7,207 nucleotides of DNA from a virus. Lineage: Duplodnaviria > Heunggongvirae > Uroviricota > Caudoviricetes. Within the stretch, counting starts at the first letter, position 1, and the number at the start of each line of letters is the position of its first letter. The stretch lies in the IMG/VR virus record IMGVR_UViG_2541047595_000010; one strand, 5' to 3'. Position numbers and translations under genes: made by a program. Shown here piece after piece: positions 4,527-7,207 of this stretch. The notes beneath the pieces were generated by a model that did not search any database, was not told the origin of the DNA, and was given only the letters and a program-made list of their open reading frames with translations.

Positions 4527-4585
4527 TTTCTGGTGACGTTTGGCGGTATCAGTTTTACTCCGTGACTGCTCTGCCGCCCTTTTTA
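4527..4585 (+). ncRNA. dicF: DicF small RNA (about 53 nt plus U tail), processed from the dicB-operon transcript
   Basis: TTTCTGGTGACGTTTGGCGGTATCAGTTTTACTCCGTGACTGCTCTGCCGCCC followed by TTTTT matches my recollection of DicF; it sits between ydfC and dicB as in K-12. Confidence 0.7.
4543..4585 (+). terminator. Intrinsic terminator-like element at the DicF 3' end (GC stem GGCGG...CCGCC followed by TTTTT)
   Basis: GGCGG at 4543-4547 can pair with CCGCC at 4574-4578; T5 at 4580-4584. The loop is large, so termination is probably partial, consistent with dicB being expressed downstream. Confidence 0.45.
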
Positions 4586-4942: not shown

Positions 4943-5130
4943 ATTCAGCATTTGTGCTTGTTCTGACAGTTTTTCTTGTTTCCGGAGAGCCAGTTGATAT
5001 TGCAGTCAGTGTTCACAGGACAATGCAGGAGTGTATGACTGCAGCAACCGAACAGAAAATTCCCGGTAACTGTTACCCGGTCGATAAAGTTATTCACCAG
5101 GATAATATCGAAATCCCGGCAGGTCTTTAA
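4939..5130 (+). CDS. ydfD: Small membrane protein YdfD (63 aa), hydrophobic N-terminus MNSAFVLVLTVFLVSG
   Basis: ATG at 4939 overlaps the dicB stop as ATGA (translational coupling); length and position match K-12 ydfD. Confidence 0.8.
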   Translation: MNSAFVLVLTVFLVSGEPVDIAVSVHRTMQECMTAATEQKIPGNCYPVDKVIHQDNIEIPAGL

Positions 5131-5222
5131 AACAGTTCCGTAATAAATATCCGGTTTCATTCTTATATGCCAGCAATGGCAGGGATTTGTTCATCCTTAA
5201 ATCTGTCATGAGGTTAAAACAA

Positions 5223-7207
5223 ATGAGTAAAGTCTTTATTTGCGCCGCTATTCCTGACGAACTGGCAACAAGGGAAGAAGGCGCTGTGGCTGTAGCCACA
5301 GCCATTGAAGCTGGCGACGAACGCCGTGCTCGAGCAAAATTTCACTGGCAATTCCTGGAACATTATCCGGCTGCTCAGGACTGCGCTTATAAATTTATTG
5401 TCTGCGAGGATAAACCTGGCATACCCCGCCCTGCCCTCGATTCATGGGATGCTGAATATATGCAGGAAAACCGCTGGGATGAGGAGTCTGCTTCTTTTGT
5501 CCCGGTTGAGACTGAATCCGATCCGATGAACGTCACTTTTGACAAGCTGGCCCCTGAAGTACAGAACGCTGTCATGGTTAAGTTCGACACATGTGAAAAC
5601 ATCACCGTTGATATGGTTATTAGCGCACAGGAATTGTTGCAGGAAGACATGGCAACATTCGACGGACATATCGTTGAAGCGTTGATGAAAATGCCAGAAG
5701 TTAACGCCATGTATCCGGAGCTTAAGTTGCACGCCATTGGGTGGGTTAAGCATAAATGTATTCCTGGTGCTAAATGGCCCGAAATTCAGGCAGAGATGCG
5801 CATCTGGAAAAAACGTCGCGAAGGTGAACGCAAGGAAACCGGAAAATACACGTCTGTTGTTGATCTCGCCCGCGCCAGAGCCAATCAACAGTACACTGAA
5901 AATTCAACAGGAAAAATCAGCCCGGTCATTGCTGCCATTCATCGCGAATACAAGCAGACATGGAAAACACTGGATGACGAACTGGCCTACGCTCTCTGGC
6001 CTAGTGATGTGGATGCCGGAAACATTGACGGCAGCATCCATCGCTGGGCAAAAAAAGAAGTTATCGACAACGACCGCGAAGACTGGAAGCGTATCTCGGC
6101 ATCAATGCGCAAACAGCCTGATGCCCTTCGCTACGACCGCCAAACTATTTTTGGCCTTGTCCGTGAGCGTCCGATCGACATTCACAAAGATCCCGTAGCA
6201 CTGAACAAATATATCTGCGAATACCTGACGACAAAGGGCGTGTTTGAGAATGAAGAAACAGACCTGGGCACTGTTGATGTTCTCCAGTCATCAGAAACAC
6301 AAACTGATGCAGTGGAAACTGAGGTATCTGATATCCCAAAAAATGAAACCGCGCCGGAAGCTGAACCATCTGTAGAGCGTGAGGGGCCGTTCTATTTCCT
6401 CTTCGCAGATAAGGACGGAGAAAAATACGGTCGCGCAAACAAACTCTCTGGTCTGGATAAGGCACTGGCTGCTGGCGCCACTGAAATCACAAAAGAAGAA
6501 TATTTTGCCCGAAAAAATGGCACATACACGGGCTTACCGCAAAATGTAGATACCGCTGAAGATTCAGAACAACCAGAGCCGATAAAAGTTACCGCTGACG
6601 AAGTAAACAAAATTATGCAGGCAGCCAATATCAGCCAGCCTGACGCCGATAAGTTGCTTGCTGCATCACGTGGTGAATTTGTTGAAGGGATTAGTGACCC
6701 GAATGATCCGAAATGGGTTAAGGGGCTCCAGACCCGCGATTCTGTGAACCAGAACCAGCATGAATCGGAACGGAACTACCAAAAAGCGGAACAAAACAGT
6801 CCAAATGCGTTACAAAACGAGCCAGAAACGAAACAGCCTGAACCAGTAGCGCAACAGGAAGTGGAAAAAGTCTGCACCGCCTGCGGTCAGACCGGCGGCG
6901 GCAACTGCCCTGATTGTGGCGCGGTGATGGGCGACGCAACATACCAAGAAACATTCGATGAAGAGTATCAGGTTGAAGTTCAGGAAGATGATCCGGAGGA
7001 AATGGAAGGCGCTGAACATCCACACAAGGAGAACACTGGCGGCAATCAGCATCACAATAGCGATAATGAAACTGGCGAGACGGCAGATCACCCAATTAAG
7101 GTGAACGGTCATCACGAAATCACATCCACCAGCAGGACGTGTGACCATCTAATGATCGACCTTGAAACCATGGGAAAAAATCCTGATGCCCCGATCATCT
7201 CAATAGG
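5223..7207 (+). CDS. Large ydfE-like early protein, 3'-partial (at least 661 codons, runs off window end): Cys4 zinc ribbon, acidic low-complexity linkers, start of a DnaQ-like 3'-5' exonuclease domain
   Basis: ATG at 5223 with SD GAGG 9 nt upstream; hand translation of 661 codons shows no stop. Not in the ORF track because no stop lies in the window. C-x2-C-x9-C-x2-C at 6873-6917; MIDLETMGKNPDAPIISIG at 7152-7207 resembles the DEDD Exo I motif. Occupies the recE position of Rac-type prophages. Confidence 0.85.
   Translation, partial: MSKVFICAAIPDELATREEGAVAVATAIEAGDERRARAKFHWQFLEHYPAAQDCAYKFIVCEDKPGIPRPALDSWDAEYMQENRWDEESASFVPVETESDPMNVTFDKLAPEVQNAVMVKFDTCENITVDMVISAQELLQEDMATFDGHIVEALMKMPEVNAMYPELKLHAIGWVKHKCIPGAKWPEIQAEMRIWKKRREGERKETGKYTSVVDLARARANQQYTENSTGKISPVIAAIHREYKQTWKTLDDELAYALWPSDVDAGNIDGSIHRWAKKEVIDNDREDWKRISASMRKQPDALRYDRQTIFGLVRERPIDIHKDPVALNKYICEYLTTKGVFENEETDLGTVDVLQSSETQTDAVETEVSDIPKNETAPEAEPSVEREGPFYFLFADKDGEKYGRANKLSGLDKALAAGATEITKEEYFARKNGTYTGLPQNVDTAEDSEQPEPIKVTADEVNKIMQAANISQPDADKLLAASRGEFVEGISDPNDPKWVKGLQTRDSVNQNQHESERNYQKAEQNSPNALQNEPETKQPEPVAQQEVEKVCTACGQTGGGNCPDCGAVMGDATYQETFDEEYQVEVQEDDPEEMEGAEHPHKENTGGNQHHNSDNETGETADHPIKVNGHHEITSTSRTCDHLMIDLETMGKNPDAPIISI

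What the first reader, a model, noticed from the sequence alone, without database searches (positions are those of the whole stretch)
5223..7207. Intact, very large ydfE-like ORF at the recE position
In K-12 Qin the gene after ydfD (ydfE) is, to my recollection, a ~306-aa remnant cut by IS2, so its full-length form is essentially uncharacterised. Here one frame stays open for at least 661 codons with no IS. It has an ordered N-terminal region, long acidic low-complexity linkers, and a Cys4 zinc ribbon (CTACGQTGGGNCPDCG). Its position after the kil/division-inhibitor genes matches recE in Rac-type prophages, suggesting a recombination, nuclease or anti-defence role.
Basis: partly seen in the sequence, partly recalled or inferred. 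Interest (0 to 1): 0.7.

Follow-up and report, generated by a model that had tools for sequence, protein, structure and literature searches.

The report
RecE-like prophage protein, swapped nuclease
The open frame is real: it is the first 661 codons of a common, already annotated 823-residue prophage "exonuclease" (the intact form of K-12 ydfE), built like the recombination enzyme RecE but carrying a different nuclease of predicted opposite polarity, and nobody has tested what it does.

Summary
Window 5223-7207 is open for 661 codons and continues to 823 aa in complete genomes (E. coli 042, WP_000048341.1, "exonuclease"). Residues 1-256 are identical to the K-12 YdfE remnant, which IS2 cuts at that point. 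The protein is not novel as a sequence. A full-length copy is present in 3,537 of 5,426 complete E. coli genomes, its 90% cluster has 23,183 members, and it has its own PHROG family.

It is a RecE-type scaffold with the nuclease exchanged. Residues 1-240 are remote homologues of RecE's N-terminus (hhalign 98.3%). Residues 262-627 align with RecE 278-592, including the Cys4 motif. Residues 642-813 are a DEDDh 3'-5' exonuclease related to T4 DexA, where RecE has a PD-(D/E)XK 5'-3' nuclease. All folded modules are under purifying selection (dN/dS 0.06-0.14). No annealase gene is adjacent.

Standalone copies of the DEDD domain lie between Erf/SSB and Abc2 in P22-like phages. The most likely role is therefore a P_L-type, DicA-repressed 3'-5' DNA exonuclease in phage DNA-end or recombination metabolism. 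This role is inferred, not shown. Interest is modest.

The parts
5210..5213 (+). Shine-Dalgarno-like GAGG, 9 nt before the start codon
   Evidence: Read from the sequence. The start agrees with the RefSeq CDS in strain 042 and with K-12 ydfE.
5223..7207 (+). First 661 codons of an 823-codon gene (full-length ydfE; RefSeq 'exonuclease' WP_000048341.1). The gene runs off the window end and would stop at window-equivalent 7694.
   Evidence: There are no stops or indels in six alleles. Whole-gene dN/dS is 0.21.
5223..5507 (+). N1, residues 1-95: alpha/beta domain, remote homologue of the start of RecE (PF06630 region). Precomputed Pfam PF27430 probably lies here.
5508..5837 (+). N2, residues 96-205: helical domain, also homologous to the RecE N-terminal region
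   Evidence: AF2 pLDDT 93-98. hhalign 98.3% over 229 columns. dN/dS 0.07.
5838..5957 (+). Flexible linker, residues 206-245. The K-12 IS2 insertion lies just after it, at codon 256.
   Evidence: pLDDT 48-72. dN/dS 0.34. K-12 identity ends at residue 256.
5958..6257 (+). 'mid', residues 246-345: helical domain and the most widely shared module of the family, equivalent to RecE about 278-355
   Evidence: BLASTP against RecE. Present in most long relatives, whichever N-terminus or nuclease they carry. pLDDT 94-98. dN/dS 0.11.
6258..6368 (+). Acidic low-complexity linker, residues 346-382
   Evidence: dN/dS 0.77, with only 38-54% protein identity between alleles but no length change.
6369..6542 (+). 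Small conserved module, residues 383-440 (GPFYFLFADKDGEKYGRANKLSGLDKALAAGATEITKEEYFARKNG). It is absent from K-12 RecE and its function is unknown.
   Evidence: Lowest dN/dS of the protein, 0.057. Found in many YdfE-type relatives with other C-termini.
6642..7103 (+). Mosaic segment shared almost unchanged with recE (residues 474-627, equivalent to RecE about 450-592). It contains the LLAASRGEF..GISDPNDPKWVKG motif (residues 478-500) and an acidic tail.
   Evidence: BLASTP. recE genes match nt 1420-1867 of this gene at 86% DNA identity (H103-H105). dN/dS of the motif block is 0.14.
6873..6917 (+). Cys4 motif CxxC-x7-CxxC (residues 551-565), a presumed zinc ribbon
   Evidence: Invariant cysteines in all E. 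coli alleles and in RecE 517-531, but absent from 64 of 64 distant long relatives. Metal binding was not tested.
7146..7207 (+). Start of the DEDDh 3'-5' exonuclease domain (residues 642-813 in the full protein). Only motif I (M644-IDLET, with D646 and E648) is inside the window.
   Evidence: Pfam PF16473 scores 19.3 bits on the window fragment and 223 bits (E = 2.9e-66) on the full protein. Motifs were located. Nearest solved relative is T4 DexA 8KEL. PADLOC generic DEDDh model, E = 7.8e-6.

Best explanation
What it is (shown). The window holds the 5' 80% of the intact ydfE gene of a Qin-type lambdoid prophage. The product is an 823-residue, six-module protein. Residues 1-627 are a RecE-family non-catalytic scaffold: N1, N2, mid, a small conserved module, the LLAAS motif and a Cys4 motif, joined by acidic linkers. 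Residues 642-813 are a DEDDh (DnaQ/DexA/Rv2179c-like) 3'-5' exonuclease domain, where RecE has its PD-(D/E)XK 5'-3' nuclease. The exchange junction lies at the domain boundary (this protein about 627, RecE about 592).

How it most likely works (inferred). The gene is the distal large gene of the P_L-like dicBF operon. DicA-type repressors keep it silent, and it is expressed on derepression together with DicB, YdfD, Xis and Int. The DEDDh domain would remove nucleotides from DNA 3' ends by two-metal catalysis, using D646, E648, D746, H796 and D801. The RecE-type scaffold would supply whatever targeting or assembly function it supplies in RecE, which published reviews still call unknown. The role would be processing of phage or host DNA ends during recombination or replication, for example trimming 3' tails or flaps. 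It would act with an annealase encoded elsewhere or with host RecA pathways, because no annealase is encoded next to it.
For: Identity
- 100% DNA identity to the annotated 'exonuclease' in many genomes.
- 256/256 identity to K-12 YdfE.
- Full-length hit to phrog_2082.
- The 90% cluster has 23,183 members.

Architecture
- RecE alignment 262-627 against 278-592, E = 2e-61.
- Pfam PF16473, 223 bits, at residues 642-813. RecE instead has PF06630 and PF12684.
- N-terminal remote homology to RecE: hhalign 98.3%, E = 1.8e-14, against E = 0.1-0.7 for reversed and shuffled controls.
- All four combinations of YdfE-type or RecE-type N-terminus with DEDD or PD-(D/E)XK nuclease occur among relatives.

The protein is functional
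- Six alleles of 87-100% nucleotide identity are all 2,472 nt, with no stop or indel.
- dN/dS is 0.06-0.14 on every folded module.
- The N-terminal model is confident, pLDDT 91.
- The catalytic motifs are conserved.
- A 99.9% identical copy is carried by the deposited phage genome PhiR42_1.

DNA and recombination role
- The nearest solved relative is T4 DexA, a DNA 3'-5' exonuclease (PMC12153337).
- Standalone domains 56-58% identical lie between Erf-like annealase/SSB and Abc2 (anti-RecBCD) in the P_L operons of phages epsilon34 and CurroJimenez_Bas106.
- The gene occupies the recE slot before xis-int.

Regulation
- dicBp resembles lambda P_L, is repressed by DicA, and the operon is described as including ydfE (PMC10448788).
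Against: - No biochemical or genetic data exist for this protein. Literature searches found only incidental mentions.
- No annealase (recT, bet or erf) is adjacent in any of eight contexts examined. A classical exonuclease-annealase recombination pair is therefore absent.
- A 3'-5' exonuclease cannot make the 3' single-stranded tails that annealases use.
- The Pfam family is named for an exoribonuclease, so an RNA substrate is not excluded.
- In K-12, Northern blots did not detect a transcript long enough to include ydfE (PMC10448788).
Confidence: 0.55

Rival explanations
1. Prophage-encoded anti-phage defence. The DEDD domain would act like the reported E. coli DexA homologue EcD ('HREX') and degrade the modified (5hmC) DNA of invading T-even phages, so the gene would be kept because it protects the lysogen.
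For: - EcD, a standalone E. coli DexA homologue, degraded T4 DNA in vitro and protected cells (PMC12153337).
- EcD begins at the position equivalent to M644 of this protein (primer MIDTET against MIDLET).
- The gene is retained in 65% of complete E. coli genomes, often in cryptic prophages.
- DicB, in the same operon, is reported to protect against phages (PMC6832061, title and abstract).
- Weak hit to PADLOC's generic CRISPR-associated DEDDh model (E = 7.8e-6).
Against: - The gene lies in a repressor-controlled P_L-type operon, not in a constitutively expressed moron position.
- In the phmmer alignment, the residue whose loss defines EcD's dimer-only state (DexA D90 changed to Ala) is still Asp here, at D718.
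- The domain is fused to a 630-residue RecE-type scaffold that a simple defence nuclease would not need.
- Its closest standalone relatives sit in recombination modules of functional phages.
- K-12 tolerates its disruption.
- The EcD sequence could not be retrieved for direct comparison.
- The PADLOC hit is a generic fold match.
Confidence: 0.15
2. RNA-directed enzyme. As the Pfam name (Rv2179c-like 3'-5' exoribonuclease) and some RefSeq names suggest, it would trim or degrade RNA, for example processing the polycistronic dicBF transcript or host RNAs during lytic growth.
For: - The best Pfam family is PF16473, defined on an M. tuberculosis exoribonuclease.
- Several sources name it '3'-5' exoribonuclease'.
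- The dicBF mRNA is heavily processed (PMC10448788).
Against: - That processing is attributed to RNase III and RNase E.
- The only solved relative found by sequence is a DNA exonuclease, T4 DexA.
- The scaffold is shared with a DNA recombination enzyme, RecE.
- Standalone relatives are embedded between Erf/SSB and Abc2.
Confidence: 0.12
3. A true RecE (exodeoxyribonuclease VIII), that is a 5'-3' dsDNA exonuclease working with RecT, as many phage records annotate it.
For: - Annotated 'exodeoxyribonuclease VIII' in phage records PV340562 and ON470619.
- Homology to RecE over the scaffold.
Against: - There is no PD-(D/E)XK domain; RecE's PF12684 is replaced by PF16473.
- The NCBIfam exoVIII equivalog scores 281.6 against a cut-off of 1269 and covers only residues 246-623.
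- No recT is adjacent.
Confidence: 0.02
4. A decaying remnant: several pseudogene fragments that happen to stay in frame in a cryptic prophage.
For: - K-12 carries an IS2-disrupted copy. Another strain has an IS3 insertion (H1).
- Many database entries are partial, although most of those are cut at contig ends.
Against: - dN/dS is 0.06-0.14 on each folded module.
- Alleles down to 87% identity keep exactly 2,472 nt with no stops.
- The fold prediction is confident.
- The gene is present in a deposited phage genome.
Confidence: 0.01

Closest known systems
RecE (exodeoxyribonuclease VIII) of the Rac prophage, E. coli K-12 (b1350, 866 aa)
   Same: - Same genomic slot, as the large gene of the early-left operon upstream of xis-int.
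- Homologous non-catalytic scaffold. The N-terminus matches by hhalign at 98.3%. The mid domain and residues 262-627 align with RecE 278-592.
- Near-identical LLAAS motif, Cys4 motif and acidic tail.
   Different: - The catalytic domain is a DEDDh 3'-5' exonuclease (PF16473), not a PD-(D/E)XK 5'-3' exonuclease (PF12684).
- The N-terminus is too diverged to hit PF06630.
- It has an extra conserved module at residues 383-440.
- No recT partner gene follows it.
YdfE of K-12 Qin (b1577 pseudogene)
   Same: Identical over residues 1-256, with the same upstream genes dicB and ydfD.
   Different: K-12 has only the N1-N2 part, because IS2E interrupts the gene at codon 256. The copy here is intact.
T4 DexA (PDB 8KEL/8KEN) and the E. 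coli homologue EcD ('HREX', PMC12153337)
   Same: - Same DEDDh exonuclease superfamily. DexA is the best PDB match by sequence (E = 9.7e-6, residues 643-776).
- EcD starts at the position equivalent to M644.
   Different: - DexA and EcD are standalone proteins of roughly 200 aa, whereas this domain is fused to a 630-residue scaffold.
- The DexA D90 equivalent is retained as Asp, unlike in EcD.
- Similarity to DexA is low, and the EcD sequence could not be compared directly.
Standalone DEDD exonucleases of P22-like phages (epsilon34 gp34, CurroJimenez_Bas106_0031)
   Same: 56-58% identical to residues 640-816. Encoded in the P_L operon of temperate enterobacterial phages.
   Different: They are single-domain proteins flanked by an Erf-like annealase, SSB and Abc2. 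The Qin-type protein has no such neighbours and carries the RecE scaffold instead.

Membership tests
RecE / exodeoxyribonuclease VIII | C-terminal PD-(D/E)XK (RecB-like) 5'-3' nuclease domain (Pfam PF12684/DUF3799 in K-12 RecE) | tested here: not met
   Pfam scan of the 823-residue protein finds PF16473 and no PF12684. K-12 RecE scanned alongside gives PF12684 at E = 4.1e-28.
RecE / exodeoxyribonuclease VIII | Whole-protein score above the NCBIfam equivalog cut-off (NF007259, 1269 bits) | tested here: not met
   281.6 bits, covering only residues 246-623.
RecE / exodeoxyribonuclease VIII | N-terminal Exonuc_VIII domain (PF06630) | tested here: inconclusive
   There is no direct Pfam hit. However, profile-profile comparison shows remote homology (98.3%, E = 1.8e-14; controls E = 0.1-0.7).
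RecE / exodeoxyribonuclease VIII | Shared central region (RecE 278-592), including the Cys4 motif | tested here: met
   BLASTP E = 2e-61, 39% identity overall and near-identity from residue 474 onward. Cys4 is conserved.
RecE / exodeoxyribonuclease VIII | Adjacent recT annealase gene | tested here: not met
   Eight contexts show this gene followed directly by xis and int. In Rac, recE is followed by recT.
DEDDh (DnaQ-like) 3'-5' exonucleases, Rv2179c-like/DexA branch (PF16473) | Domain score above Pfam gathering threshold | tested here: met
   223 bits against a cut-off of 27, residues 642-813, profile 2-177 of 177. The window fragment alone scores 19.3 bits, below the cut-off, because only 20 residues are inside the window.
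DEDDh (DnaQ-like) 3'-5' exonucleases, Rv2179c-like/DexA branch (PF16473) | Catalytic D-E-D-D plus His motifs | tested here: met
   The motifs are M644-IDLET (D646, E648), NGANFD (D746) and HNALDDA (H796, D801), located. They are conserved in the alleles, apart from a D-to-E change at 746 in L007. The assignment of roles follows the established DEDDh motif pattern.
DEDDh (DnaQ-like) 3'-5' exonucleases, Rv2179c-like/DexA branch (PF16473) | Metal-dependent 3'-5' exonuclease activity and substrate (DNA or RNA) | not testable with these tools
   This needs biochemistry.
YdfE (K-12 b1577) | Sequence identity and synteny after dicB and ydfD | tested here: met
   256/256 identity and the same gene order.
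PHROG phrog_2082 'exonuclease' | Full-length match to the family profile | tested here: met
   E = 0, 1824 bits, residues 1-822 against profile 1-822 of 823.
HREX / EcD-type defence exonuclease (PMC12153337) | Loss of the tetramer-forming Asp (DexA D90 changed to Ala) | tested here: not met
   In the phmmer alignment to 8KEL, DexA D90 aligns with D718 of this protein. The alignment is of low identity, so the mapping is approximate.
HREX / EcD-type defence exonuclease (PMC12153337) | Standalone protein that protects cells from T4 | not testable with these tools
   This protein is a fusion, not standalone. The protection phenotype needs experiment. The EcD sequence was not retrievable.

The most novel reading that the evidence does not exclude
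The RecE-type scaffold (N1, N2, mid and the small conserved motifs) may be an autonomous functional platform whose job does not depend on nuclease polarity. It could, for example, capture DNA ends, dock onto a host factor such as SSB or RecBCD, or itself promote strand pairing. Phages would then plug either a 5'-3' PD-(D/E)XK nuclease or a 3'-5' DEDDh nuclease into it. The Qin-type protein would be a self-sufficient, annealase-independent DNA-end processing or anti-RecBCD/anti-defence factor. It would also be a natural domain-swap experiment that explains the long-unknown role of RecE's N-terminal two-thirds.
Probability: 0.15. Interest if true: 0.6.

Novelty: already known. Interest (0 to 1): 0.32.

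Why it matters
As a sequence this is ordinary. It is one of the commonest prophage genes in E. coli and is correctly annotated as a 3'-5' exonuclease.

Its value is comparative. RecE is a workhorse of recombineering, yet a 2023 review still calls its N-terminal region 'of unknown function' (PMC11611040), although full-length RecE is reported there to improve linear-linear recombination.

This work shows that the same scaffold is under strong purifying selection when attached to a nuclease of the opposite predicted polarity and without a neighbouring annealase. It also shows that all four N-terminus and nuclease combinations exist in nature. The scaffold's function is therefore separable from 5'-3' resection and from RecT. 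Swapping nucleases or deleting the shared mid, LLAAS or Cys4 modules would make that question directly testable.

Tried and rejected

2. A Rad52-like annealase in a sister class of relatives. Nineteen representatives (phrog_2489/7838) have C-termini with motifs resembling Rad52 signatures.
   - Pfam Rad52_Rad22 scored only E = 0.013, below its cut-off.
   - A profile search of the PDB found nothing.
   - The AF2 model was of moderate quality, pLDDT 69.
   - Foldseek gave no annealase hit.
   The idea was rejected as unsupported.

3. Direct comparison with EcD. Only its primers were available. They do not match any allele held here, and two viral-collection scans found nothing.

4. A RecT fusion. 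One of 54 relatives hit Pfam RecT, but phmmer with K-12 RecT against the representatives gave no hit. This was not pursued.

5. Literature on ydfE, Rv2179c with prophage, and RecE with DEDDh. No functional study of this protein was found.

6. Promoter and terminator scan around the gene. The counts were no higher than in shuffled sequence, so there is no evidence for a promoter of the gene's own.

7. The names of Pfam families PF27430 and PF27432, seen in precomputed annotations, could not be read because they are absent from the local Pfam copy.
Full report
**1. The observation**

Translating window 5223-7207 in frame 1 gives 661 sense codons with no stop. The ATG at 5223 is preceded by GAGG at 5210-5213. 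The nearest in-frame upstream stop is at 5103-5105, and an alternative in-frame ATG lies at 5208.

The same DNA is 100% identical to an annotated 'exonuclease' gene in many complete E. coli genomes. In strain 042 the gene continues to 2,472 nt, or 823 codons (WP_000048341.1). The window therefore carries the first 80% of the gene.

The surrounding window genes are, in order: methyltransferase, DUF977, a replication-like gene, ydaT-like gene and dicC on the minus strand, then dicA, ydfA, ydfB, ydfC, DicF RNA (Rfam hit at 4528-4579), dicB and ydfD on the plus strand. This is the Qin prophage early region.

ydfE there is a 921-nt pseudogene, identical to this protein for residues 1-256, and it then runs into IS2E.

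**2. Anatomy**

| Region | Finding |
|---|---|
| Residues 642-813 | Pfam PF16473 (Rv2179c-like 3'-5' exonuclease, DEDDh), 223 bits. Only its first 20 residues, with motif I M644-IDLET, fall inside the window. |
| Residues 262-627 | Align with RecE 278-592 (E = 2e-61). Near-identical from residue 474 onward, including the LLAASRGEF..GISDPNDPKWVKG motif, the Cys4 motif and the acidic tail. |
| Residues 1-240 | No hit in the local Pfam copy. Remote homology to RecE-type N-termini: 98.3% probability, E = 1.8e-14 over 229 columns. |

K-12 RecE, scanned alongside, has PF06630 at its N-terminus and the PD-(D/E)XK domain PF12684 at its C-terminus.

At the DNA level, recE genes match nt 1420-1867 of this gene at about 86% identity. 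This is a typical lambdoid mosaic segment.

The N-terminal comparison used 13 YdfE-type N-termini against 18 RecE-type N-termini. The signal persists for the first 95 residues alone (93%, E = 3.5e-7). Reversed or column-shuffled controls give E = 0.1-0.7.

The whole non-catalytic part is therefore a RecE-type scaffold, and the nuclease has been exchanged at the domain boundary. The NCBIfam RecE equivalog scores far below its cut-off (281.6 against 1269) and covers only the middle of the protein.

**3. Structure**

AlphaFold2 on residues 1-345, with 34 diverse relatives, gives mean pLDDT 91.3. It predicts:
- an alpha/beta domain (residues 1-95)
- a helical domain (about 105-205)
- a disordered stretch (206-245)
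- a helical 'mid' domain (246-340)

**4. Is it a working gene?**

Five further alleles, at 87-95% nucleotide identity and from different strains, are all exactly 2,472 nt with no stop or indel.

Nei-Gojobori dN/dS by region:

| Region | dN/dS |
|---|---|
| N1 | 0.09 |
| N2 | 0.07 |
| mid | 0.11 |
| Module 383-440 | 0.06 |
| LLAAS block | 0.14 |
| DEDD domain | 0.14 |
| Linkers | 0.3-0.9 |

The Cys4 motif is invariant in the E. coli alleles and in RecE, but absent from all 64 long relatives below 50% identity. It is a clade feature, and metal binding is untested.

**5. Distribution and prior knowledge**

- A copy covering at least 80% of the gene is present in 3,537 of 5,426 complete E. coli genomes.
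- The 90% identity cluster has 23,183 member sequences, and one UniProt name is D3GTE4_ECO44.
- PHROGs holds a full-length family, phrog_2082, 'exonuclease'.
- Precomputed annotations list two recent Pfam families on the N-terminal part, PF27430 and PF27432.
- The deposited phage genome PhiR42_1 (host ECOR13) carries a 99.9% identical gene.
- The N-terminal region family is small, with 171 representatives among 1.84 billion 50%-clustered proteins.

Literature searches found no functional study. [quoted passage not shown]

**6. Modularity**

Mapping modules onto the long representatives shows all four combinations:
- YdfE-type N-terminus with DEDD (this protein, P0138)
- YdfE-type N-terminus with PD-(D/E)XK (P0142, P0238, P0244)
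- RecE-type N-terminus with PD-(D/E)XK (RecE itself, P0200, P0260, P0270 and others)
- RecE-type N-terminus with DEDD (P0148, P0239, P0243, P0250, P0262, P0276)

The 'mid' domain is present in most of them. Two further C-terminal classes of unknown nature exist.

**7. Context and mechanism**

The cassette dicB, ydfD-like gene, this gene, xis, int recurs next to rspB, potC and ompW. It occurs with DicA-, RacR- or LexA-like repressors and with different integrases, and never with an adjacent annealase. Rac has recE followed by recT.

Published work describes dicBp as P_L-like and DicA-repressed, and describes the operon as including ydfE. In K-12, however, no transcript long enough to include ydfE was detected (PMC10448788).

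The nearest solved relative of the catalytic domain is T4 DexA, a DNA 3'-5' exonuclease (PMC12153337).

Standalone domains 56-58% identical to residues 640-816 lie within the P_L recombination modules of epsilon34 (kil, gp37, gp36 recombination protein, SSB, gp34, Abc2) and CurroJimenez_Bas106 (kil, recombinase, Erf-like annealase, SSB, endonuclease, exonuclease, abc2).

From this I infer that the protein is a 3'-5' DNA exonuclease acting on DNA ends during lytic development, tethered by a RecE-type scaffold. This is inference, and the missing annealase and the wrong polarity for making 3' tails are real difficulties.

**8. Rivals**

- Defence (EcD/HREX-like). This is possible but disfavoured by the repressed operon position, the retained Asp at the DexA D90 equivalent, the large scaffold, and only a generic PADLOC DEDDh hit.
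- RNA substrate. This cannot be excluded without biochemistry.
- True RecE, or a pseudogene. Both are refuted by sequence.

**9. Verdict**

The object is a known and correctly annotated but experimentally unstudied prophage gene.

The one moderately interesting point is that RecE's enigmatic scaffold is conserved on nucleases of opposite predicted polarity. That makes its function testable by natural and engineered domain swaps.

Noticed in passing
window 4528-4579 (+): DicF small RNA: full-length Rfam RF00039 match, 76.7 bits against a gathering score of 48. It lies between ydfC and dicB, as in K-12 Qin.
   Followed up: partly
relatives P0153, P0173, P0193, P0269 and others (19 representatives), C-terminal ~230 aa: A third C-terminal module is fused to the same YdfE/RecE-type scaffold (phrog_2489/7838, annotated 'exonuclease'). 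It matches neither nuclease. Its motifs TSINAEYM.MRATE.FGP.G.GWG and KKSLTDAIKKALS.LGFSAD look Rad52-like. However, Pfam gives E = 0.013, and the PDB profile search and Foldseek are negative. Its nature is unresolved.
   Followed up: yes
relatives P0140, P0266 and others (10 representatives), C-terminal ~300 aa: A fourth C-terminal class on the same scaffold (phrog_26058, unknown function) has no Pfam hit.
   Followed up: partly
window 6258-6368 and 6543-6614 (residues 346-382 and 441-464): The acidic linkers evolve almost neutrally (dN/dS 0.77-0.87, 38-60% protein identity between alleles). Yet none of six alleles spanning 87-100% nucleotide identity has a single indel, so linker length appears to be constrained.
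   Followed up: partly
L002 (K-12) 5844-6549; hit H1 (NZ_CP128581.1); H100-H102: The gene has been hit by IS elements at least twice independently: IS2 at codon 256 in K-12-like strains, and an IS3-family element in strain VG888-46E9.
   Followed up: no
P0002 (527 aa), P0084 (392 aa): Shorter variants join the mid domain almost directly to the DEDD domain. They lack the 383-440 module, the LLAAS motif and the Cys4 motif. They could be natural deletion forms or assembly artefacts.
   Followed up: no
L006-L010 versus L001: The same cassette (dicB, ydfD-like gene, exonuclease, xis, int) sits at three different chromosomal sites (rspB, potC, ompW). It occurs with different repressors (DicA, RacR, LexA-like CI) and different integrases, so it moves as a module among lambdoid prophages.
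   Followed up: partly
window 5208-5222: An in-frame ATG five codons upstream of the annotated start would add MRLKQ. It lacks an obvious ribosome-binding site.
   Followed up: no
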